Sequence record: OZ077758.1
From: a phage
DNA: 44,664 nt
Reading direction: 5' to 3' (one strand)
Shown: piece by piece, positions 1,949 to 39,982 of the stretch
How the letters are laid out: each line of letters begins with the position of its first letter
Numbering within the stretch: position 1 is the first letter of the stretch
Position numbers and translations under genes: made by a program
The notes under the pieces: model-generated
The model's database searches: none
What the model saw: the letters and a program-made list of their open reading frames with translations, nothing else
What the model was told of the DNA's origin: nothing

Positions 1949-3469
1949 ATGACCGTTAACGTTGACAACCAGCACCCACTATATGCGCGCATCGCGCCAG
2001 AGTGGAAGATGATCCGCGATTGTGTAGCAGGGGAGCGCGCAGTGAAGGCGTGCGGCCCCTTGTACCTGCCTCATCCCGCCAGTGGCGACAATACTGACCC
2101 GAAAGCACGGGCGCGGTATAAGGCGTACAAGCAACGCGCTGTATTCCTGAACGCCACCGCCCGCACACTTAACGCGCTGTTAGGCGTTGCCTTTGCTAAA
2201 CCGGTAAGTCTGGACCTTTCCGGGGCGATGGCTGACCTGATTGACGACGTAGACGGCAGCGGTATGCCTCTGCCGCAACTCCTGCGCGGTGCTATGTCGG
2301 AAGTGCTGCAATCAGGCCGTGCGGGCTTTATGGTGGACTACGACCGCCAGGCGCATTTTGATGAACTGGGTAACGTAGTACCGCAGACCGCCGCTGAAAT
2401 GGCAGCACACCGCCCGCTTATCCGCCTGTATACGGCTGAACAGATCATTAACTGGCGGCAGACCCACGGCGTCGACACGCTGATTGTGCTGAAGGAAACG
2501 GACGAAATCAGCACCGAAGACCCGGACGACTTCGCAAACCACGAGGTAACCATCTGGACCGAGCTTCGCATGATTGACGGCAAGGCACACGCCCGACGCT
2601 GGTTTTACAATGCGGACACGTCAGAAGTGCAAATGGACTTGCCGCGTGGATTTACCCGCACCGACCTTGTGCCGCTGGTGGATGCTGCCGGTAAAGCGCT
2701 GACACAGCTTCCGTTTTGCTGGTGTGGCGCGGTGGACAACAACGCAACGCCTGACGCCGCTCCGCTGGCGGATATCGCATCCATCAACATTAAGCACTAC
2801 AACGCCGAAGCGGACGTCGCCGAGATTGCGCACATCGTGGGTCAACCGACCCTGGTGGCGACGGGCTTGACTCAATCATGGGCGGACAAGAACCTGAAGG
2901 GCGGCATTGCCCTCGGCGCGACTAAGGGCGTTATCCTGGGCCAGAATATGGATGCTAAACTGATCCAGGCGGAGGAGCGCAACTTGTCGGTTGCACTGTG
3001 TGAGCGTCGCGAATTGCAAATGGCTAAACTGGGCGCGGCCCTGGTCGAGAAGGGGACCGCACCTAAGACGGCAACCGAGGCGGCATACGATGCGCAGACT
3101 GATAACAGTATCCTGTCGCTTATTGCCGGTAACGTTGAGAAGGCGTTCAACCGTGCGCTGCAAATCGTGCAGCTTTTCACTGGTGACACCGCCGACCAGC
3201 GTGTGACGCTGAACAAGTTCTACACCGAAATCACGGTTGACGCACAGCTTATGACCGCGATGATGGCAGGTGTGCAGACCGGTACGGTCCGTCTGGCGGA
3301 CTTTATCAAGTGGATGATGGCCCAGGGCGTTATTGATGACTCGCAAACCGTCGAGCAGGTGGAAGACGAACTGCGAAATCAGAATCCATTGCCTCAAATG
3401 TCCCCGGATGCGGTAGAATCGACCGAAGAAGCCCCGGACGAGGTAGTGGACAATGGCGAAGACAATTAA
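1949..3469 (+). CDS. portal protein
   Basis: 506 aa, directly after terL, acidic C-terminal tail; RBS AAGGAAAA before ATG at 1949. Confidence 0.8.
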   Translation: MTVNVDNQHPLYARIAPEWKMIRDCVAGERAVKACGPLYLPHPASGDNTDPKARARYKAYKQRAVFLNATARTLNALLGVAFAKPVSLDLSGAMADLIDDVDGSGMPLPQLLRGAMSEVLQSGRAGFMVDYDRQAHFDELGNVVPQTAAEMAAHRPLIRLYTAEQIINWRQTHGVDTLIVLKETDEISTEDPDDFANHEVTIWTELRMIDGKAHARRWFYNADTSEVQMDLPRGFTRTDLVPLVDAAGKALTQLPFCWCGAVDNNATPDAAPLADIASINIKHYNAEADVAEIAHIVGQPTLVATGLTQSWADKNLKGGIALGATKGVILGQNMDAKLIQAEERNLSVALCERRELQMAKLGAALVEKGTAPKTATEAAYDAQTDNSILSLIAGNVEKAFNRALQIVQLFTGDTADQRVTLNKFYTEITVDAQLMTAMMAGVQTGTVRLADFIKWMMAQGVIDDSQTVEQVEDELRNQNPLPQMSPDAVESTEEAPDEVVDNGEDN

Positions 3470-5769: not shown

Positions 5770-5798
5770 TTTTGTGTCCTCGTTGTTGGTGTGCAACC

Positions 5799-5827
5799 AA
5801 TATATGCAACCAATACGAGGATTGCAA
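5799..5827 (-). promoter_or_regulatory. sigma70-like promoter for the minus-strand moron
   Basis: minus strand reads TTGCAA - 17 bp (TCCTCGTATTGGTTGCA) - TATATT about 30 nt upstream of ATG; two direct copies of GCAACCAAT at 5793..5801 and 5806..5814. Confidence 0.45.
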
Positions 5828-24995: not shown

Positions 24996-25047
24996 TATGT
25001 TTTCCTTTTTAGTGGGGGAGGTATGGCCCCCAACGTGATTAAGATAC

Positions 25048-25069
25048 TGCAACCAACCTATTGGTTGCA
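25048..25069. promoter_or_regulatory. perfect palindromic operator TGCAACCAA-N4-TTGGTTGCA
   Basis: inverted repeat of the TTGGTTGCA motif, overlapping the 3' end of the HAD gene and upstream of gene 24486..24995; adjacent TTGCAAGTGAATTTTGC 17-mer also found at 5822..5838. Confidence 0.55.
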
Positions 25070-25528
25070 AGTGAATTTTGCAACGTTTATCGCATAAATC
25101 TTCGGGACTAGATCGCCGCACGCCCGACGAATTGCCGCGATGTTCTTCGGACAGTCTTCAATGATGACCAGTTCCGACACGTCCGCATAGCAGACCATTT
25201 TGAACACGGCGCACGCCTTAAACTCTGGTGGCGGGGTGTCGTCCAGCATGTGGCGCATAAACAACCGGCCTACCGGGAAGATCTCCAATTGCTCGGCGGT
25301 GGTGTCCCAACATTCTCGCTGCCGGTTGGTCAGATACGCGATCTCGAAGCCTCGCTCTTTGTACATGCGCAGCAACGGCAGCATATCCATATTCAGGTCT
25401 TCGCGTACGTGCGCCTTGTGCCACTTCGCCCAAAAGGTGGATTTAGTTTTTATACCAGGCACCAGGTCGGCGCGCGCATCGCTTGAGCCATTAATAACGC
25501 CATCCAAATCGCAAATCAGTAATTTCAT
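25058..25528 (-). CDS. HAD-superfamily hydrolase (possible nucleotidase/phosphatase)
   Basis: 156 aa; HAD motif I LLICDLDGVI at N-terminus. Confidence 0.5.
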   Translation of the reverse strand: MKLLICDLDGVINGSSDARADLVPGIKTKSTFWAKWHKAHVREDLNMDMLPLLRMYKERGFEIAYLTNRQRECWDTTAEQLEIFPVGRLFMRHMLDDTPPPEFKACAVFKMVCYADVSELVIIEDCPKNIAAIRRACGDLVPKIYAINVAKFTCNQ

Positions 25529-25749
25529 TTTAAGCTCTCAATAAGGGTTTGTCGGGCGCTGCGCGCGGTGTAGGAGTTGCACACGAAATGGCAACGTCGG
25601 GTAATGACAAGCCACCCGGTAAGGTCCATGCCCAAGATGTGTTCAGGCCGTGACACGCGACGCACACGATCGCGGCGCGGGTCGATGTTATAGTCTTTTT
25701 GCATTTGGTCTACGACCGCGTGGTCGCGGTCAACGATTAAGATATTCAT
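25525..25749 (-). CDS. hypothetical protein
   Basis: about 74 aa from internal ATG; overlaps neighbours, weak RBS. Confidence 0.3.
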   Translation of the reverse strand: MNILIVDRDHAVVDQMQKDYNIDPRRDRVRRVSRPEHILGMDLTGWLVITRRCHFVCNSYTARSARQTLIESLK

Positions 25750-26215
25750 GTAGCTCACTCTCGCTCATTATTTCAATTTGTGCGCTGCCGATGGGCGGCG
25801 CTTCGTCAAAGATTATCAACTGCTGGCACTTGTTATTGCTAGGCCCGACTTCGCCGGTGACGGCGTGTATAAATCTAATCCGCCAGTCCAGAAGAATTAT
25901 CAGGTTTGCAGTCTTCCTGGCCAGCTTCGCCCACTTCGTCGACGTGTCCTGATTCAGTAGCATGACCGTCCGGCGTCCGTGCGCTGCGCACTCTACCCAC
26001 GGCAGTGGATCGGAGTACGGCGGATTGCACCACTTCCACCCTTTCAACTCGGACCAGTCCACATCAAGCGCGCTGTGTTCTGCAGTGAAGTAACGCGGTA
26101 GCAGGTGGTTTGCATCGCTTGCCGCCATATCGTAACGGAATCGGTACTTCCGGCGCAGCGGTTTAAATAAAGCTGGCGGCGTGCGCCAGCTATCTTTTTG
26201 CTCACTCTTCTGCAT
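25730..26215 (-). CDS. DNA N6-adenine methyltransferase (phage Dam-like)
   Basis: 161 aa; catalytic NPPY motif (WCNPPYS) and N-terminal WRTPP..LF region typical of small phage Dam methyltransferases. Confidence 0.7.
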   Translation of the reverse strand: MQKSEQKDSWRTPPALFKPLRRKYRFRYDMAASDANHLLPRYFTAEHSALDVDWSELKGWKWCNPPYSDPLPWVECAAHGRRTVMLLNQDTSTKWAKLARKTANLIILLDWRIRFIHAVTGEVGPSNNKCQQLIIFDEAPPIGSAQIEIMSESELHEYLNR

Positions 26216-26660
26216 GGTCGGTGTCTATCGCATAAAGTGGAACCTTGCCTCCTTTACCAATGACGCGTTGCATGCGCTTTAAATCCTCGACACTAAGCGC
26301 TTTCGGGGAGATGCTGCCGTTTGTAGGGTTGCGCCACGCCATAAGCACAAGGTCTTTCCGGGCGATCGAAGACTGGCGGCCCTTCGGACGCACGTACTCC
26401 TCCGCACGTTTGCAATGCTCGCGCAGACCTTCGGCAGTGATGCGGTTTAGCGCGACGGTGGTGGTGTATCCGGTGCGCTGCATAATACCCATCAACTCAT
26501 ACAGCAGGTCGAAGCGCTCCTCTAATTCCTTGCGCGCCTTCTCCTCGCCTTCATAGCTCGCCAGGTAGGTGTCCGCCAGCGCGTTCGCGCGTTCGGCCTG
26601 TTCGCGGGCTTCGAGGCATTGCGCGGCCCAGTAATTTTTTTCTTCTTGTAAAATTTTCAT
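26202..26660 (-). CDS. hypothetical protein (coiled-coil)
   Basis: 152 aa, charged helical N-terminal half. Confidence 0.5.
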   Translation of the reverse strand: MKILQEEKNYWAAQCLEAREQAERANALADTYLASYEGEEKARKELEERFDLLYELMGIMQRTGYTTTVALNRITAEGLREHCKRAEEYVRPKGRQSSIARKDLVLMAWRNPTNGSISPKALSVEDLKRMQRVIGKGGKVPLYAIDTDHAEE

Positions 26661-26903
26661 CTATTTAGTCTCCGTAGTGCGGATTTCATCGCGTGGAATA
26701 AATTTGCCGTCCATCTCTACCCAGCAGACACCATAGCGCCATTGGGTGTTGCGACCTGTTTGCTCCGCGTACACAGTCCGGCATTCGTAGCGTTCCGAGT
26801 AGTAGACACCCGCGGCAGGTACGCAAACACAAACGGCAATCATGAGGGTGAGGAGCACCCAAAACCGAAGGTCGCCGTCGTAGTCGAAAAATAATGATTT
26901 CAT
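26661..26903 (-). CDS. small membrane protein
   Basis: 80 aa; hydrophobic helix WVLLTLMIAVCVCVPAAGVYY; RBS GGAGA. Confidence 0.5.
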   Translation of the reverse strand: MKSLFFDYDGDLRFWVLLTLMIAVCVCVPAAGVYYSERYECRTVYAEQTGRNTQWRYGVCWVEMDGKFIPRDEIRTTETK

Positions 26904-26920
26904 ATCACTGTCTCCGGGTA

Positions 26921-26948
26921 TTAAAAAGGGCGTCCAAACCGGACACCC
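26921..26948 (-). terminator. rho-independent terminator (minus strand) at operon boundary
   Basis: minus strand GGGUGUCC-GGUUU-GGACGCCC hairpin followed by TTTTTAAT; sits just downstream of the promoter -10. Confidence 0.55.
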
Positions 26949-26950
26949 TC

Positions 26951-26979
26951 AATATAATGCAACCAATATGGTTATGCAA
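26951..26979 (-). promoter_or_regulatory. sigma70-like promoter
   Basis: minus strand TTGCAT - 17 bp - TATATT; two direct ATTGGTTGCAT copies (one supplies the -35, one abuts the -10). Confidence 0.5.
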
Positions 26980-26984
26980 CCAAT

Positions 26985-27308
26985 TTACGAATAAAAATTT
27001 GGGTCGCGCGCAACGTCTACCAGATACAGGTTACTAATGCGGTTGCCGTAATGGCCTGGCGTGCGTTGACGGCACACTACGGCATAGCCTGGAGGGATTG
27101 TATTGCCAGTCTCAATAATCCACGCCACGCGTGCGCCGGATAGCGTCTTGCCGTTGCATTCGATACGAGTACCGCCATCGGCAGTGTTAAGGTTGCCGAT
27201 CTTGCAGCCTGTGGACTTCAGGCGAATGACGCCGGTCTTGCTGTCGTAGGAAAAAAGCTGATTGGTCATTGCCACTGAAAAGTCGATGGCTTCAAATGTA
27301 GTATTCAT
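26985..27308 (-). CDS. HNH_3/NUMOD4-like protein with degenerate catalytic residues
   Basis: 107 aa; pattern LSGARVAW..GNTIPPGYAV...GHYGNRISNLYLV resembles HNH_3 homing-endonuclease fold but the canonical first His is replaced; start overlaps methyltransferase stop (ATGA). Confidence 0.45.
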   Translation of the reverse strand: MNTTFEAIDFSVAMTNQLFSYDSKTGVIRLKSTGCKIGNLNTADGGTRIECNGKTLSGARVAWIIETGNTIPPGYAVVCRQRTPGHYGNRISNLYLVDVARDPNFYS

Positions 27309-28000
27309 TTTAAATTTTCCTCATTGACCGCTATCGCGAAGCCGCGCGGGGTGAGCGACCGGATTAATTTTGTGCGGGCAGATTTGCCTCCGAGGCGACT
27401 ATACTGCTTCGAGTACCCTTTTTCAACGAAAACAGGTTTCTTCTCGGGCATACGGAAGCCGTTGCCTGTCCATAAGCAGGTTAGCTTCGGATATGAATCG
27501 CGGGCGTTGATGTATTCCGGGAAGAGCGGGTGTACGTCATCCTCTGGCAGATATCCACCATACTCCCACGGGTCAAACGAGTGGTCCGGCTTACGCCATT
27601 GGGTGGAGAGCACGCTGCGCGGATTCTCAATCATATATGGCACTTCAAAGAAGTCCCCCAGGTAAGCGGCGATCTTCGCGGTGCGCACCGCCTTAAGCTG
27701 AAAGGCTGGGTCTTTTGCACGCTTGCGCGGGAAAGCTGGCGCGCCGCTCACCGCCAGATCAGTACACGGCGGGAATGCATAGATGATATCCGGCGTGCCG
27801 AAATCGCCATTCATCGCGCGGTCCACGAAGTCCAGATCAATAAACTCATTGCGATATCGGATCCCGCGACCATAAATCCGGTAGTCCAGGTACGACCCGT
27901 GGTCGGCTTCGGAGTAGTTGAAGCAATAACACTTATGCCCCATCTCGGCAGCACGCTCAATCATCAAGCCGCTGCCGTCAAATAATGACCAGATAATCAT
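27305..28000 (-). CDS. compact DNA cytosine-5 methyltransferase-like protein
   Basis: 231 aa; motif I SLFDGSG, motif IV FPPC with downstream SGA, motif VI-like ENP; much shorter than typical C5-methyltransferases. Confidence 0.55.
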   Translation of the reverse strand: MIIWSLFDGSGLMIERAAEMGHKCYCFNYSEADHGSYLDYRIYGRGIRYRNEFIDLDFVDRAMNGDFGTPDIIYAFPPCTDLAVSGAPAFPRKRAKDPAFQLKAVRTAKIAAYLGDFFEVPYMIENPRSVLSTQWRKPDHSFDPWEYGGYLPEDDVHPLFPEYINARDSYPKLTCLWTGNGFRMPEKKPVFVEKGYSKQYSRLGGKSARTKLIRSLTPRGFAIAVNEENLK

Positions 28001-29421
28001 TTGCGCGCCTTTTTAGCTTTCATGTATTCCATCAAGTCGTCCTGAATGTCTCGCTTACTGTCGCGACGCTCCGCGACCAGTTCGTCCAGTGTGCCGCGCG
28101 CCTGGATAATGTAGACGAATACGGGGCGAGGGTGCCCGGCTTGCATCTGGCGAACAGGCCCAATACGTTCCACGATCTGCGCAAAGTGCTCATAGTTCCA
28201 GGTGTCTGAGAAGATAGCAAGGTGGTGTCCGCCATCCTGCAAGTTAAGGCCGTGACCTGCCGAAGCCGGGTGCGCGAACATGATGGGGATCTCGCCCCTG
28301 TTCCACGCTTCCATATCCTTATTTCCTTGCTTACCCTTACCCATCGCTACTCCGTGCGGGAATTTCTTCTTGAGACGCGCCAGATCATGCTTATATTGGT
28401 ACGCGACGAGCAACGGTGCGCCGTTCAACTCCTCCACGATACTTTCCAGCGCGTCCAGCTTAGCGTCGTGAATTTTCACCCACTCGTCGGTCCGTTCACC
28501 GTCTTCGTCGACTTTATACACTGCCCCCGAAGCAAGCTGAAGGCACTTAATGGTCTTCGACGCGGCGTTCGCCGCCTCCACCGTTCCGCTTTCCAGTTCG
28601 GCAAATAGCTCCGCTTCGAACTGGTCATAAATCTTGCGGGCTTTCTTCGGCAGGTCCACAACAACCGGCGTATAGATTGGCTTGTCACATCCGAAGTATT
28701 CAGCCGCATCAACGGTGAGCGACACGTCGGACAGGCGTTGTTGTATTTCTTTCTCGGAGTTTTTTAGCGGGGCGTGCTGCATAGTGAAGCTGCCAGGCTT
28801 AACCGGCTTGCTAATAAACCAGCGGTCTGTGAATGCCTTATAACTACTGCCGAGGCGTTCGCCACCGTCGACAAACCACGTCTGACCCCATAAGTCCTTC
28901 AGCCCGTTTGGTGCGGGTGTGCCGGTAAGGTTAATCCAGCGCTTGACGTGCTTATGAGCAATCGCCGCCAGCGCACGGGCGCGCTTACTCCCCTGCTTGC
29001 TTCTATATCCTTTCAGCTTAGTGGATTCATCGGCAACAACTACCGTGAAGGGCCACTCGTCGCCGCAATACTCGACAAGCCACTCAACCACATCATAGTT
29101 AACACAAACCACGTTAGCGTCGCTCTCAAGCGCAGCGATGCGGTCCTTCTCTGACCCGGTGCCGTCTACTACCAGCAGGGCGGGGAAGCGCCATTTTTCT
29201 TGTTCCGGTGGCCATGTGCCCGATGCAACGCGCAGCGGGGCAAGCACCAGTACGCGGTCCTCCTGGTTGGACAGGATGCCGGTCTGGAACATTTTATTCA
29301 GTGCCCACATGGTCGCGCCAGTTTTACCCGACCCCATTGTCGCCCATATATTGCATCGCTTATGCTTGAGGATGAACGCGGTTATCAACTTCTGATATTC
29401 GCGACGTCGGAAACGTGCCAT
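27997..29421 (-). CDS. SNF2-family helicase
   Basis: 474 aa from ATG 29421; Walker A GSGKTG, DExx box VVADES, LTGTP motif. Confidence 0.8.
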   Translation of the reverse strand: MARFRRREYQKLITAFILKHKRCNIWATMGSGKTGATMWALNKMFQTGILSNQEDRVLVLAPLRVASGTWPPEQEKWRFPALLVVDGTGSEKDRIAALESDANVVCVNYDVVEWLVEYCGDEWPFTVVVADESTKLKGYRSKQGSKRARALAAIAHKHVKRWINLTGTPAPNGLKDLWGQTWFVDGGERLGSSYKAFTDRWFISKPVKPGSFTMQHAPLKNSEKEIQQRLSDVSLTVDAAEYFGCDKPIYTPVVVDLPKKARKIYDQFEAELFAELESGTVEAANAASKTIKCLQLASGAVYKVDEDGERTDEWVKIHDAKLDALESIVEELNGAPLLVAYQYKHDLARLKKKFPHGVAMGKGKQGNKDMEAWNRGEIPIMFAHPASAGHGLNLQDGGHHLAIFSDTWNYEHFAQIVERIGPVRQMQAGHPRPVFVYIIQARGTLDELVAERRDSKRDIQDDLMEYMKAKKARK

Positions 29422-29425
29422 ATCT

Positions 29426-29659
29426 TTATTCCGCCTTTTTCCAGACTTCGGTTTCACTGTTCCAGTTCCTTTTTGTGGCGTCGTAGTTGGTGCGGTGCCC
29501 GATGTGCACACCCGTCGCCCGGAAGCTCTTAAATTTTTGCCAGCATACCGTCAACGGCAGCGGGTCATTCATGCCCGCGATAAACCATACGCGATCGCCC
29601 GGTTTACATTCGCCCAGCTTGGTGAGTCGGTAATGATCTTTCATCGTCATGTCTCCCAA
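29426..29659 (-). CDS. hypothetical protein
   Basis: 77-aa ORF between Zn-ribbon gene and helicase. Confidence 0.4.
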   Translation of the reverse strand: MGDMTMKDHYRLTKLGECKPGDRVWFIAGMNDPLPLTVCWQKFKSFRATGVHIGHRTNYDATKRNWNSETEVWKKAE

Positions 29660-29687
29660 AAATGGCGGGACAAGCCCGCCGTATTAA

Positions 29688-29861
29688 TTATTTTTGCTCT
29701 GCGCGGTAGCGGCGCTGCCGTTCGCGCTCTTTTTTATTGCGGCACGATTTGCACTCGGCCCGATACCCGTCTGGACTGCGCGCAGTCTTACCGGTGTATT
29801 TGTGGAACTGGGATAGCGGTTTAACGCAGCCGCAATTACTGCAGCGTTTTTCTTCAATCAT
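29688..29861 (-). CDS. small zinc-ribbon protein
   Basis: 57 aa from ATG 29861 with RBS GAGGA; CxxC ... CxxC (CSNCGC ... CKSC); basic C-terminus. Confidence 0.5.
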   Translation of the reverse strand: MIEEKRCSNCGCVKPLSQFHKYTGKTARSPDGYRAECKSCRNKKERERQRRYRAEQK

Positions 29862-29892
29862 TTCTAAAATCCTCGATATGGCTAACCGGCAC

Positions 29893-29921
29893 AATATACC
29901 GCTACGCGACCAATTCAGCAA
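29893..29921 (-). promoter_or_regulatory. sigma70-like internal promoter
   Basis: minus strand TTGCTG - 17 bp - TATATT with ATTGGTTGC at the -35; lies inside the 3' end of the VRR-NUC gene. Confidence 0.4.
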
Positions 29922-30180
29922 CCAATAAATCACAGTCGGCTATGTTGTCGATAACGCGAACGTCCGCACCGCGGCGGGCCATCCGCTCATGTTCTCGTAC
30001 CTGGTGCGGCTTCGGTTTGCCTCCGGGGCGCTTCACTTCGACGAAAACTATTCTGCCGTTGATGATGATGATCAGATCTGGCGCACCTGCGCGCCCCTCC
30101 CAAGCCACTTTGCGGCAGAATCCGCCTACCGCTTTCACCCGTCGCATCAGGTGACTTTGAATCTTGCCCTCTGGTGTCAT
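29902..30180 (-). CDS. VRR-NUC domain nuclease
   Basis: 92 aa from ATG 30180 overlapping polymerase stop; motifs GAPDLIII and VFVEVKRPGGK..Q. Confidence 0.7.
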   Translation of the reverse strand: MTPEGKIQSHLMRRVKAVGGFCRKVAWEGRAGAPDLIIIINGRIVFVEVKRPGGKPKPHQVREHERMARRGADVRVIDNIADCDLLVAELVA

Positions 30181-39323: not shown

Positions 39324-39359
39324 AGCGCGGAGTGTTAGGTTTTTATACCGATCCGCACA
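39206..39359. repeat. perfect 77-bp tandem duplication
   Basis: 39206..39282 and 39283..39359 are identical (AAAAGGTGGCACATCGACGAAGGCAATCGACGATATGGTAGAGCGCGGAGTGTTAGGTTTTTATACCGATCCGCACA). Confidence 0.9.
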
Positions 39360-39457
39360 CCGGGGCCATATATGGGTCGTCGAATATCGTCATCAAAACG
39401 AATATACCCATCACGCTTTCGGCGACCGATGACGACCTGAAAGATTAATTTGTGCGC

Positions 39458-39560
39458 GTATTGGTTGCCGATATGGGAATTCCCATATCGCTAAAAGATT
39501 AAATTTTGCGCGCATTGGTTGCCATTTTGGGTGTTTTTATCAGGTCGTATTGGTTGCCGT
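39458..39560. promoter_or_regulatory. three spaced ATTGGTTGCC sites plus 20-bp perfect palindrome
   Basis: ATTGGTTGCC at 39460..39469, 39514..39523 and 39549..39558; GATATGGGAATTCCCATATC palindrome at 39470..39489. Confidence 0.6.
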
Positions 39561-39595
39561 GTAGTGTGATTATTATGAATAGTTATGCAATAAAA

Positions 39596-39772
39596 CTGCA
39601 TAAAACAAACGGGACAAAAAGCGGGACAAACAAGGGGCGGGACAAAGCGGGACAGCACCCCCGTCCCGCCCCGGATGACGCGGCCTGGAGAGGAGCGGGA
39701 CAGCGGGACAGCACCCCAGTCTTTCAGACTAGACGGGGGTCAGTGGCCCCCCTCGTCTGAGACTGAATAAAA
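39596..39772 (+). repeat. GGGACA iteron array plus conserved double-hairpin element (copy B)
   Basis: same architecture as 11541..11712; flanks nearly identical, central 34-bp block diverged at about half the positions with length conserved; preceded by AT-rich segment 39565..39610. Confidence 0.8.
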
Positions 39773-39925
39773 TCCGGGGATTGCAAAATACACGGCAGCA
39801 TGATGCGAAGTGCGGTCGTAGGTGAACTAGGCAACCAATGCGAGTTGCATTATGCGAAGTGAAAAATGCAGTTTGCAGTCACAGCGGATAGCGATCAACT
39901 TTTTCATGCGCGTGATTAATATTGG

Positions 39926-39954
39926 TTGCACCCCGCCTGGCACCCTGCTATATT
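39926..39954 (+). promoter_or_regulatory. sigma70-like promoter
   Basis: TTGCAC - 17 bp - TATATT, built from two ATTGGTTGCAC copies; leader GGTTGCACACCAACATGAGGA also found at the moron promoter. Confidence 0.5.
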
Positions 39955-39982
39955 GGTTGCACACCAACATGAGGACTGAACG

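What the first reader, a model, noticed from the sequence alone, without database searches (positions are those of the whole stretch)
26985..28000. Compact C5-methyltransferase-like gene coupled to a degenerate HNH-like gene, near a Dam-like methyltransferase
Gene 27305..28000 has clear C5-methyltransferase motifs I, IV and VI but is only 231 aa, leaving little room for a target recognition domain. Its stop overlaps the start of a 107-aa HNH_3/NUMOD4-like ORF whose canonical first catalytic His is replaced. A Dam-like N6-adenine methyltransferase (25730..26215) is encoded 1 kb away. Together these suggest a layered anti-restriction module, possibly a split enzyme in which the small HNH-like or AP2-like protein supplies DNA binding, or a remnant homing or restriction-modification-like unit.
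Basis: partly seen in the sequence, partly recalled or inferred. Interest (0 to 1): 0.5.

Follow-up and report, generated by a model that had tools for sequence, protein, structure and literature searches.

The report
Minimal phage cytosine methylase, dead HNH neighbour
This is the replication-module corner of an ordinary HK578-like (Dhillonvirus) coliphage: a very small DNA cytosine-C5 methyltransferase of a known phage family whose relative works on its own, followed by a conserved, probably nuclease-dead relic of a homing endonuclease that does not depend on it.

Summary
On the minus strand, an SNF2-type helicase gene (27997-29511), a 231-aa C5-methyltransferase-like gene (27305-28000) and a 107-aa HNH-like gene (26985-27308) are joined by ATGA stop/start overlaps. 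A Pfam Dam gene lies at 25730-26215.

The window is a Dhillonvirus. About 160 GenBank phage genomes carry the same genes, already annotated this way.

The HNH-like protein is an I-HmuI/HNH_3 derivative. It lacks the catalytic His, the metal-binding Asn and the AP2 tail. It is nevertheless under strong purifying selection (dN/dS 0.05). It is kept in Dhillonviruses that deleted the methyltransferase (EP23). It also occurs in Edwardsiella phage eiAU beside an unrelated C5 methyltransferase. I read it as a domesticated, probably nuclease-dead protein of the helicase module, with unknown function.

Overall interest is low to moderate.

The parts
27997..29511 (-). SNF2-type DNA helicase gene, first gene of the translationally coupled run. 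The true start is probably the internal ATG, giving about 474 aa as annotated in relatives.
   Evidence: Pfam SNF2-rel_dom 3e-11 and PHROG 62 3e-157. Annotated as a 1425-nt helicase CDS in Oekolampad and SSL-2009a. ATGA overlap with the next gene.
27305..28000 (-). 231-aa minimal DNA cytosine-C5 methyltransferase of the short phage 'Dcm-like' family (PHROG 757)
26985..27308 (-). 107-aa I-HmuI/HNH_3-like protein lacking the catalytic His, the metal-binding Asn and the AP2 domain; conserved core gene of Dhillonvirus
26957..26984 (-). Tandem pair of the dispersed motif ATTGGTTGCAT (17-nt spacing), in the 81-nt gap directly after the HNH-like stop codon and upstream of the next gene. A likely regulatory boundary between the helicase-methyltransferase-HNH run and the genes leading to Dam.
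   Evidence: The 10-nt core gives 17 hits in the window against 3.1 expected.
26661..26903 (-). 80-aa ORF of unknown function between the HNH-like gene and Dam; absent from EP23
   Evidence: PHROG 18961 at 2e-52, no Pfam hit. No match in the EP23 locus L017.
26202..26660 (-). 152-aa ORF of unknown function (PHROG label 'DNA ligase' is not supported by any domain)
   Evidence: PHROG 10530 at 8e-88, no Pfam hit. It diverges fastest among the six genes compared (dN/dS 0.22).
25730..26215 (-). 161-aa phage Dam-family N6-adenine DNA methyltransferase
   Evidence: Pfam PF05869 at 9.6e-36 and PHROG 111 at 5e-55. TIGR01712 scores 86 bits, below its cut-off of 97. dN/dS 0.08.

Best explanation
**Context.** The window is a Dhillonvirus (HK578-like E. 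coli siphophage). Helicase, a 231-aa gene and a 107-aa gene are read one after another from the minus strand of its early/replication module. Their stop and start codons overlap.

**The 231-aa protein.** I read it as an autonomous S-adenosylmethionine-dependent DNA cytosine-C5 methyltransferase of a compact, phage-specific family.
- It should use the standard C5 mechanism. The target cytosine is flipped out. Cys79 (motif IV, PPC) attacks C6. Glu125 (motif VI, ENP) protonates N3. The methyl group is transferred from SAM, which is held by motif I (FDGSG).
- Target recognition would come from a short, highly conserved segment of about 45-60 residues between motif VI and the C-terminal RSLTPRG helix. 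There is no separate recognition domain and no partner protein.
- During infection it presumably methylates phage DNA, and any other DNA in the cell. This could blunt some cytosine-sensitive restriction.
- It would also make the phage visible to retron Ec86/Eco1, which fires when its msDNA is C5-methylated.
- The gene is accessory. About 7% of sequenced Dhillonviruses have lost all or part of it.

**The 107-aa protein.** I read it as a domesticated descendant of an HNH_3-AP2 homing endonuclease.
- It keeps the I-HmuI-like N-terminal sheet and the beta-beta-alpha core.
- It has lost the general-base His, the metal-binding Asn and the AP2 DNA-binding tail. It is therefore most likely not a nuclease.
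- It is a core gene that travels with the helicase, not with the methyltransferase. Its present function is unknown; a DNA- or helicase-binding role is my guess.

**Dam.** It is a separate, ordinary phage adenine methyltransferase. It lies after a likely regulatory boundary.

**Shown and inferred.**
- Shown here: gene order, family membership, predicted fold, conservation, loss patterns and missing catalytic residues.
- Shown by others for a 54%-identical counterpart: 5mC formation when the protein is expressed alone.
- Inferred: activity of this copy, its target sequence, its anti-restriction role, and the inactivity and role of the HNH-like protein.
For: **Identity of the phage**
- The region is about 92% identical in nucleotides to 161 Dhillonvirus-type records.
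- Those records are annotated helicase / Dcm-like C5 methyltransferase / putative homing endonuclease / Dam.

**Methyltransferase**
- PHROG 757 at 2e-82.
- 2,886 clusters at 90% identity and 823 representatives at 50% identity, mostly about 210-260 aa.
- Invariant F7, G9, S10, G11, P77, P78, C79, T80, E125, N126, P127, W135, R136, K172 and the LGGKS..TK.IRSLTPRG block.
- Model pLDDT 90.3.
- Foldseek best hits are DNMT3A/3B, E about 1e-6.
- 54% identity, E 1e-86, end to end with KarlJaspers bas06_0055. Its C82, E128 and K175 are C79, E125 and K172 here.
- Preprint 10.1101/2023.08.16.553469 on K42 Dcm (K42's genome is 95.4% identical to KarlJaspers): expressed alone from pBAD, it raises 5mC in Ec86 msDNA by LC-MS and triggers the retron. 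The C82A/E128A/K175A/K176A mutant does not. 34 of 35 Ec86-sensitive phages encode such a Dcm.
- dN/dS 0.027.

**Independence of the two genes**
- The methyltransferase family is in 1,512 phage records. The HNH-like protein is in 163.
- Among 66 non-Dhillonvirus loci, only a Dhillon-like contig has the HNH-like gene abutting.
- In EP23 the helicase is followed directly by the HNH-like gene. The junction keeps the last ~17 nt of the methyltransferase gene.
- 11 of 158 records have partial or full methyltransferase deletions.

**HNH-like protein**
- Alignment A5 shows His to Cys79/Leu, AHR to GAR, the final Asn to Val99, and no AP2 domain.
- dN/dS 0.053.
- eiAU gp31 is 40% identical and sits between the helicase and a PF00145 methyltransferase followed by Dam.
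Against: - No activity data exist for this protein or for any Dhillonvirus copy.
- The second Lys mutated in K42 (K176) is Leu173 here and varies within the clade. Its importance is unknown because only a quadruple mutant was tested.
- The K42 work is a preprint. Its CCWGG specificity was assumed from the name rather than measured.
- Profile comparison with E. coli Dcm finds only motif IV, at probability 0.3%. The target sequence therefore remains unknown.
- No canonical motif X (GN[AS]V) is visible, and the C-terminal helix could not be mapped onto motif IX or X without residue-level superposition.
- The HNH-like protein keeps an invariant Gly85-His86-Tyr87 and Asp98. A rearranged active site cannot be excluded from sequence alone.
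- Abutting placement beside C5 methyltransferase genes recurs in eiAU and, with a canonical HNH_3-AP2 gene, in Vequintavirus EmilHeitz. Some functional or mobility link is therefore not excluded.
Confidence: 0.8

Rival explanations
1. Split or two-subunit methyltransferase. The 231-aa catalytic core needs the 107-aa HNH-like protein as its DNA-recognition subunit, and translational coupling ensures matched amounts.
For: - ATGA overlap between the two genes.
- The methyltransferase has no separate recognition domain.
- The HNH-like protein keeps an I-HmuI-like DNA-contacting N-terminal sheet.
- The adjacency holds in diverged Dhillon-like contigs.
- HNH-family genes also abut C5 methyltransferase genes in eiAU and EmilHeitz.
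Against: - K42 Dcm, whose KarlJaspers counterpart is 54% identical to the window protein, works when expressed alone.
- More than 1,300 phage records carry the methyltransferase family without any homologue of the 107-aa protein.
- EP23, Dru_SM5, Opt212 and Teewinot lost the methyltransferase but kept the HNH-like gene intact.
- The helicase and methyltransferase genes overlap in the same way, so the overlap is simply how this operon is packed.
Confidence: 0.04
2. Decaying remnant of a mobile homing-endonuclease cassette. The 107-aa ORF is a pseudogene-like leftover with no present function, and the methyltransferase was its cargo.
For: - Its nearest canonical relatives are 165-190-aa HNH_3-AP2 homing endonucleases, often next to helicase genes.
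- It has lost catalytic residues and the AP2 domain.
- SSL-2009a carries a frameshifted C-terminus.
- The methyltransferase is present or absent as a unit among Dhillonviruses.
Against: - dN/dS is 0.053 across 14 distinct alleles while dS is 0.67.
- It is full length in about 158 Dhillonvirus records and in 58-63%-identical metagenomic relatives.
- A 40%-identical homologue lacking the catalytic His is kept in Eiauvirus.
- It survives deletion of the methyltransferase.
Confidence: 0.08
3. The HNH-like protein is still a nuclease with a rearranged active site (for example His86 and Asp98). It could act as a nicking or homing enzyme, or as the cutting half of a restriction-modification-like pair with the methyltransferase.
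For: - Gly85-His86-Tyr87, Arg90, Asn93-Leu94 and Asp98 are invariant across all ten family members, including eiAU-group gp31.
- The beta-beta-alpha core is predicted with high confidence.
Against: - The His present at the general-base column in all seven canonical relatives is Cys or Leu here.
- The helix Asn that binds the metal aligns to Val99.
- His86 sits in a two-residue insertion within the hairpin loop, not at the end of strand 1.
- There is no C-terminal DNA-binding domain.
- The gene persists without the methyltransferase, which an R-M-like pair would not tolerate in that direction.
Confidence: 0.08
4. The 231-aa protein is not a DNA methyltransferase in this phage. It could be inactive, it could methylate RNA or free nucleotides, or it could transfer a group other than methyl, such as carboxymethyl.
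For: - No Pfam or NCBIfam model recognises it.
- Motif X is not visible.
Against: - The characterised K42 protein produces 5-methyl-dC in DNA by LC-MS.
- All residues conserved in the family are intact here, and selection is very strong (dN/dS 0.027).
- No CmoA-like carboxy-SAM synthase showed up among the eight neighbouring ORFs scanned.
Confidence: 0.05

Closest known systems
Dcm of Drexlerviridae phage K42 / KarlJaspers (bas06_0055, 236 aa), the trigger of retron Ec86/Eco1
   Same: - Same family: the KarlJaspers protein is 54% identical, E 1e-86, over the full length.
- Same size class.
- Same catalytic Cys, Glu and first Lys.
- Same DNMT3-like predicted fold.
- Located in the early/replication region near a helicase gene.
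   Different: - Different phage lineage.
- Flanked by small hypothetical genes, not by an HNH-like gene.
- K176 there is Leu173 here.
- Activity was shown for K42 only.
DNMT3A/DNMT3B catalytic domain (closest solved structures)
   Same: - Both are C5 methyltransferases with an unusually small target-recognition region.
   Different: - Only 11-17% sequence identity.
- The DNMT3 chains matched are about 270-290 aa.
- DNMT3 enzymes have a clear motif X and work as DNMT3L-containing oligomers (the latter from general knowledge).
- The oligomeric state of the phage protein is unknown.
Classical bacterial C5 methyltransferases (Pfam PF00145: M.HhaI, M.HaeIII, E. coli Dcm)
   Same: - Motifs I, IV and VI in the same order.
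- The profile aligns motifs I to IV with M.HaeIII.
   Different: - About 100 residues shorter than the HhaI and HaeIII chains (327-328 aa) and half the size of E. coli Dcm (472 aa).
- No separate small/recognition domain.
- No PF00145 hit.
- hhalign probability against E. coli Dcm is 0.3%. The name 'Dcm-like' therefore says nothing about CCWGG specificity.
I-HmuI and HNH_3-AP2 phage homing endonucleases
   Same: - It shares the YD.KTG, R.AW and NR..NL sequence blocks.
- Canonical relatives also sit next to helicase genes.
   Different: - Catalytic His replaced by Cys or Leu.
- Metal-binding Asn lost.
- Two-residue GHY insertion.
- AP2 or HTH C-terminal DNA-binding domain absent.
- It is fixed in a whole genus rather than sporadic.
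Naturally split C5 methyltransferases (M.AquI, M.EcoHK31I; recalled from general knowledge, not tested here)
   Same: Two adjacent or overlapping genes, one of them a short C5 methyltransferase core.
   Different: - In those enzymes the second polypeptide carries methyltransferase motifs (IX-X) or is needed for activity.
- Here the neighbour is an HNH-fold protein and is absent from almost all phages that carry the methyltransferase. The K42 homologue also acts alone.
Edwardsiella phage eiAU replication module (helicase, gp31, C5 methyltransferase, Dam)
   Same: - Same module order: DNA polymerase I, small genes, helicase, then the HNH-like protein, a C5 methyltransferase and a PF05869 Dam.
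- gp31 is 40% identical to the 107-aa protein and also lacks the catalytic His.
   Different: - The methyltransferase there is a 330-aa PF00145 enzyme with no detectable similarity to the 231-aa family.
- It lies after, not before, the HNH-like gene.

Membership tests
DNA cytosine-C5 methyltransferase superfamily | Motif I (FxGxG, SAM binding) near the N-terminus | tested here: met
   F7-D-G9-S10-G11, invariant in 35 family members.
DNA cytosine-C5 methyltransferase superfamily | Motif IV Pro-Cys dipeptide with the catalytic cysteine | tested here: met
   P77-P78-C79-T80 is invariant. It aligns with the PC of M.HaeIII and E. coli Dcm. It equals C82 of K42 Dcm.
DNA cytosine-C5 methyltransferase superfamily | Motif VI ENV with the catalytic glutamate | tested here: met
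   E125-N126-P127 is invariant. It equals E128 of K42 Dcm.
DNA cytosine-C5 methyltransferase superfamily | C5-methyltransferase fold | tested here: met
   [not shown]
DNA cytosine-C5 methyltransferase superfamily | Passes the curated sequence model (Pfam PF00145 gathering score) | tested here: not met
   No PF00145 hit at E<=0.1. Only 3 of the 120 listed relatives carry a precomputed PF00145 hit.
DNA cytosine-C5 methyltransferase superfamily | Variable target-recognition domain between motifs VIII and IX, and C-terminal motifs IX and X | tested here: inconclusive
   Only about 87 residues lie between ENP and RSLTPRG. That segment is highly conserved rather than variable. No GN[AS]V motif is seen, and the C-terminal helix could be IX-like or X-like. 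No residue-level superposition was available.
DNA cytosine-C5 methyltransferase superfamily | Transfers methyl to C5 of cytosine in DNA | not testable with these tools
   Shown by LC-MS only for the K42 homologue, in a preprint.
Short phage 'Dcm-like' methyltransferase family (PHROG 757, K42 Dcm type) | Full-length similarity to family members, length about 225-250 aa | tested here: met
   PHROG 757 at 2e-82 over residues 1-229. 57-84% identity to 34 aligned members. 54% identity to KarlJaspers Dcm.
Short phage 'Dcm-like' methyltransferase family (PHROG 757, K42 Dcm type) | The four residues mutated in the inactive K42 variant (C82, E128, K175, K176) | tested here: inconclusive
   C79, E125 and K172 are present. 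K176 is Leu173 here and varies in the Dhillonvirus clade.
E. coli Dcm (CCWGG-specific) | Sequence homology that would justify transferring CCWGG specificity | tested here: not met
   hhalign probability 0.3%; only 25 columns around motif IV align.
HNH_3 / I-HmuI-type HNH endonuclease | Passes Pfam HNH_3 gathering score | tested here: not met
   13.7 bits against a cut-off of 24.8. Only profile positions 5-21 match.
HNH_3 / I-HmuI-type HNH endonuclease | I-HmuI-like fold (N-terminal sheet plus beta-beta-alpha core) | tested here: met
   [not shown]
HNH_3 / I-HmuI-type HNH endonuclease | General-base His at the end of strand 1 (the 'DH' of HNH_3) | tested here: not met
   All 7 canonical relatives have His. 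The window protein has Cys79 and diverged family members have Leu.
HNH_3 / I-HmuI-type HNH endonuclease | Metal-binding Asn/His in the helix after NL | tested here: not met
   The canonical Asn column aligns to Val99.
HNH_3 / I-HmuI-type HNH endonuclease | C-terminal DNA-binding module (AP2 or HTH) | tested here: not met
   The protein ends 13 residues after NL. Canonical relatives carry a further C-terminal extension, which scores as AP2 in EmilHeitz.
Split (two-polypeptide) C5 methyltransferase | Obligate co-occurrence of the two genes | tested here: not met
   1,512 phage records carry the methyltransferase and 163 carry the HNH-like gene. Genomes with the HNH-like gene and no methyltransferase exist.
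Type II restriction-modification pair | An active endonuclease gene paired with a methyltransferase of the same specificity | tested here: not met
   Nuclease catalytic residues are missing. The 'nuclease' gene persists without the methyltransferase.
Phage Dam family (Pfam PF05869) | Passes the Pfam gathering score | tested here: met
   123.4 bits against a cut-off of 28.1, E 9.6e-36. NCBIfam equivalog TIGR01712 scores 86.4, below its cut-off of 97.

The most novel reading that the evidence does not exclude
The nuclease-dead HNH-like protein may be a domesticated homing endonuclease that now acts as a sequence-specific DNA-binding factor of the replication module, for example an origin- or operator-binding protein or a helicase loader.

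- Its candidate site is the (A/G)TTGGTTGCA motif.
- That motif is strongly over-represented in Dhillonvirus (17 against 3.1 expected) and in Eiauvirus (18 against 2.9 expected). These are the two genera that share the protein.
- It is not over-represented in the controls KarlJaspers and SETP3.
- In both genera the motif clusters in the non-coding stretch after the primase gene.

The co-occurrence rests on two genera that share many other genes, so it is only a lead.
Probability: 0.1. Interest if true: 0.5.

Novelty: new member of a known kind. Interest (0 to 1): 0.25.

Why it matters
For the main claim there is little to add. The compact methyltransferase is an already annotated, widespread phage gene, and one member has been shown to work alone.

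Three points are still useful:
- **Annotation.** The family is missed by Pfam and NCBIfam, so automated pipelines often call it hypothetical.
- **Target sequence.** The name 'Dcm-like' suggests CCWGG, but no sequence evidence supports that. The real target of one of the smallest known C5 methyltransferases remains unmeasured. It bears on which restriction systems and retrons these common coliphages evade or trigger.
- **The 'HNH endonuclease' next door.** It is almost certainly not an endonuclease. It is a conserved core gene linked to the helicase, so its role is an open small question. It is also a caution for phage-therapy genome screens that list it as a homing nuclease.

Tried and rejected
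- **Sequence searches of the 231-aa protein.** Pfam, NCBIfam and PDB gave nothing significant. The family profile gave only E=0.89 to M.HaeIII. hhalign against E. coli Dcm gave probability 0.3%. Sequence alone could not place it; the predicted fold and a characterised homologue did.
- **A general methyltransferase/HNH partnership.** A home-made HNH_3 HMM was run on ORFs of 80 viral contigs carrying the methyltransferase. Apart from the Dhillon-like contig L046, 7 of the other 65 non-Dhillonvirus loci had a canonical HNH_3 ORF within 2.5 kb, and none abutted the methyltransferase. I take this to be the ordinary scatter of homing endonucleases in such phages, though no control was run. The idea was rejected as a rule, although Vequintavirus EmilHeitz has an abutting canonical HNH_3-AP2 gene.
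- **Longer family members.** Proteins of 290-450 aa were scanned for a fused recognition or partner domain. No Pfam domain was found.
- **Profile search of the HNH-like family against PDB sequences.** No hit.
- **Literature.** I searched for a measured methylome or target site for Dhillonvirus or this methyltransferase family. None was found.
- **Site-frequency statistics.** GATC (157 against 198 expected) and CCWGG (143 against 158) are not avoided, while many 6-bp palindromes are absent. This is compatible with protection by methylation but far too weak to assign specificity.
- **Promoter and terminator scan.** It gave nothing decisive around the genes.
Full report
**What is there.**
- The window is 92-93% identical in nucleotides across 25000-30000 to Escherichia phages EC115, UAE_MI-01, SSL-2009a, Oekolampad (Bas18) and about 160 other records of the genus Dhillonvirus, the HK578-like siphophages.
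- In those records the same stretch is annotated DNA helicase, Dcm-like C5 cytosine methyltransferase, putative homing/HNH endonuclease, two hypothetical proteins, then Dam-like N6-adenine methyltransferase.
- In the window the genes are all on the minus strand:
  - helicase, 27997-29511
  - a 231-aa ORF, 27305-28000
  - a 107-aa ORF, 26985-27308
  - an 80-aa ORF, 26661-26903
  - a 152-aa ORF, 26202-26660
  - a 161-aa Dam, 25730-26215
- Helicase/231-aa and 231-aa/107-aa each share an ATGA stop/start overlap.

**The 231-aa protein is a C5 DNA methyltransferase, but not by ordinary sequence criteria.**
- It has no Pfam hit at E<=0.1, no NCBIfam hit at E<=10 and no significant PDB sequence match.
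- A 35-member family profile reaches only E=0.89 against M.HaeIII, although that alignment correctly lines up motifs I and IV.
- It matches PHROG 757 ('DNA methyltransferase') at 2e-82.
- The family is large: 2,886 clusters at 90% identity and 823 representatives at 50% identity, mostly about 210-260 residues. It occurs in 1,512 phage records, including Drexlerviridae, Vequintavirinae, Klebsiella phages and Salmonella phage 9NA.
- Invariant positions include FDGSG (motif I), PPCT (motif IV), ENP (motif VI), W135-R136, K172 and a C-terminal LGGKS..TK.IRSLTPRG block.
- An AlphaFold2 model built on that alignment has mean pLDDT 90.3.
- Foldseek places it with DNMT3A/3B catalytic domains, E about 1e-6.

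**A family member has been characterised.**
- A preprint on retron Ec86 (10.1101/2023.08.16.553469) isolated escape mutants of phage K42. K42's genome is 95.4% identical to BASEL phage KarlJaspers. All four escape mutants disrupted, or potentially disrupted, a 711-bp 'dcm' gene.
- The 236-aa protein expressed alone from pBAD raised 5-methylcytosine in purified msDNA (LC-MS) and triggered the retron. A C82A/E128A/K175A/K176A mutant did neither.
- 34 of 35 Ec86-sensitive phages in that collection encoded such a Dcm.
- I retrieved the KarlJaspers gene (bas06_0055, 711 bp). Its product is 54% identical to the window protein from end to end, E 1e-86.
- Its C82, E128 and K175 correspond to C79, E125 and K172 here. 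K176 corresponds to Leu173.
- The family is therefore a stand-alone, active DNA C5 methyltransferase. The window gene is an intact member under very strong purifying selection (dN/dS 0.027 over 14 distinct Dhillonvirus alleles).
- This is inference by homology for this copy, not a measurement.

**What remains open for the methyltransferase.**
- The 'little room for a recognition domain' remark is right. Only about 87 residues separate ENP from the RSLTPRG helix, the segment is conserved rather than variable, and I see no GN[AS]V motif X.
- The target sequence is unknown. The preprint assumed CCWGG from the name. It showed only that mutating a CCTGG in the msDNA stem abolished defence.
- Profile comparison with E. 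coli Dcm finds nothing beyond motif IV, at probability 0.3%. The name carries no specificity information.
- CCWGG (143 sites against 158 expected) and GATC (157 against 198) are not avoided in the window, whereas several 6-bp palindromes are completely absent. This is compatible with protection by methylation but does not assign it.
- The BASEL study found Dhillonvirus and Drexlerviridae phages comparatively restriction-sensitive. Among Drexlerviridae it saw no simple relation between methyltransferase genes and resistance (PMC8594841).

**The 107-aa protein is a degenerate HNH_3/I-HmuI derivative.**
- Pfam HNH_3 scores 13.7 bits against a cut-off of 24.8. PHROG 99 ('HNH endonuclease') scores 1e-16.
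- Its more distant relatives in viral contigs are canonical 165-190-aa HNH_3-AP2 homing endonucleases. One of them lies directly after a helicase gene.
- Aligned with seven canonical proteins:
  - the His of the 'DH' general base is Cys79, and Leu in 58-63%-identical metagenomic family members
  - the conserved AHR is GAR
  - the helix Asn aligns to Val99
  - a two-residue insertion carries an invariant Gly-His-Tyr
  - the whole AP2 tail is missing
- It therefore keeps the N-terminal sheet and the beta-beta-alpha core but lacks what an HNH nuclease needs. The catalytic roles of these residues come from general knowledge of I-HmuI, not from a test here.

**It is nevertheless a functional, conserved gene and does not depend on the methyltransferase.**
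- tblastn finds it in 163 phage records. About 158 are Dhillonviruses at 80% amino-acid identity or more.
- Its dN/dS is 0.053 while dS is 0.67.
- Only ten protein clusters exist in a 5.8-billion-protein collection. All are Dhillonvirus-like or from the Edwardsiella phage eiAU group. Two of the diverged contigs were examined, and both keep the order helicase, methyltransferase, HNH-like, one small ORF, Dam.
- In Shigella phage EP23 the helicase gene is followed directly by the HNH-like gene. The junction still carries the last ~17 nt of the methyltransferase gene (GAGGAAAATTTAAAATGA), so the methyltransferase was deleted.
- Of 158 Dhillonvirus records, 11 cover less than 80% of a probe spanning the methyltransferase (PS2 60%, Teewinot 45%, Opt212 42%, EP23 10%). 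In those examined, the records still annotate or match the HNH-like gene.
- Conversely, more than 1,300 phage records have the methyltransferase family without any homologue of the 107-aa protein.
- Among 66 non-Dhillonvirus methyltransferase loci, only one Dhillon-like contig (L046) has the HNH-like gene abutting. Seven others have a canonical HNH_3 ORF somewhere within 2.5 kb, which I take to be ordinary scatter.
- Together with the stand-alone activity of K42 Dcm, this rules out the split-enzyme reading for practical purposes.

**Deeper synteny.**
- Edwardsiella phage eiAU (Eiauvirus) has the same module order: DNA polymerase I, small genes, helicase, gp31, methyltransferase, Dam.
- gp31 is 40% identical to the 107-aa protein and also lacks the catalytic His.
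- The eiAU methyltransferase is a 330-aa PF00145 enzyme with no detectable similarity to the 231-aa family.
- So the stable pair is helicase plus HNH-like protein. The C5-methyltransferase slot beside it has been filled by different genes.
- In Vequintavirus EmilHeitz a member of the 231-aa family is followed, with an 8-nt overlap, by a canonical HNH_3-AP2 gene and then the primase/helicase gene.
- That recurrence may reflect homing endonucleases settling in replication modules and occasionally moving neighbouring genes. It is not a rule.

**Dam and the 'module'.**
- The 161-aa protein is a clear PF05869 Dam-family enzyme (E 9.6e-36).
- An 81-nt gap lies between the HNH-like stop and the next ORF. 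It holds two exact copies of ATTGGTTGCAT spaced 17 nt apart.
- That motif is dispersed through the genome, often just upstream of gene starts.
- The helicase/methyltransferase/HNH-like run and the genes leading to Dam are thus probably separate regulatory units. 'Layered module' overstates the linkage.

**Verdict.**
- Observation confirmed. Interpretation partly supported.
- The methyltransferase is a new member of a known, already annotated and partly characterised phage family.
- The HNH-like gene is a conserved, most likely nuclease-dead derivative of a homing endonuclease, with unknown function.
- Interest is low to moderate. The useful residue is the unmeasured target of a minimal C5 methyltransferase and the role of the domesticated HNH-like protein.

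Noticed in passing
window 5792-5814, 21903, 25048-25069, 26958-26984, 36567, 39460-39962 (seven copies), 40485, 43197; eiAU locus L114 26867-27641 and elsewhere: The 10-mer (A/G)TTGGTTGCA is strongly over-represented. The window has 17 hits at up to one mismatch against 3.1 expected. Edwardsiella phage eiAU has 18 against 2.9. KarlJaspers has 6 against 6.8 and Salmonella phage SETP3 has 0 against 2.7. Copies lie mostly between genes, often as tandem or inverted pairs 25-80 nt upstream of start codons. In both genera they cluster in the long non-coding stretch after the primase gene (window 39324-39982). This looks like an operator, iteron or promoter element of this phage lineage.
   Followed up: partly
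window, whole sequence: Several 6-bp palindromes are absent: GGCGCC, TCCGGA, AAGCTT, CAGCTG, GGGCCC, AGGCCT and CCCGGG, each 0 against 9-20 expected. GGCC and CTAG are depleted. GATC and CCWGG are near expectation. This is a classical restriction-site avoidance pattern.
   Followed up: partly
window 26202-26660 (-): This 152-aa ORF matches PHROG 10530, labelled 'DNA ligase', and is annotated as such in SSL-2009a. It has no Pfam domain and is far too small for a ligase. It evolves fastest among the six genes compared (dN/dS 0.22). The label looks like annotation drift.
   Followed up: no
L031 (Escherichia phage EmilHeitz, Vequintavirus) 1965-3390: A 253-aa member of the same methyltransferase family is followed, with an 8-nt overlap, by a canonical 223-aa HNH_3 plus double-AP2 homing endonuclease, and then by the primase/helicase gene. 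This is a second, independent methyltransferase/HNH adjacency.
   Followed up: partly
L002 / P0125 (Escherichia phage SSL-2009a) HNH-like gene: The SSL-2009a copy is frameshifted after about residue 73, giving a 111-aa product with an unrelated C-terminus. It is the only such allele seen. It could be a sequencing error or a real disruption.
   Followed up: no
P0223, P0229, P0250 (metagenomic relatives of the 231-aa protein): A few family members are 400-450 aa long, with an N-terminal extension of about 180-200 residues. Neither the extension nor the methyltransferase part has any Pfam match. These could be fusions worth a structure prediction.
   Followed up: partly
window 29422-29511 (-): The mechanical ORF for the helicase starts at a GTG and gives 504 aa. 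Relatives annotate 474-475 aa (a 1425-nt CDS). The real start is therefore probably the internal ATG, at MARFRRREYQ.
   Followed up: no
L115 (Salmonella phage SETP3) 24737-28196: The related Jerseyvirus replication module carries an intein-containing SNF2 helicase and a separate HNH endonuclease gene between the helicase and the polymerase. This is another sign that this module is a favoured landing site for homing elements.
   Followed up: no
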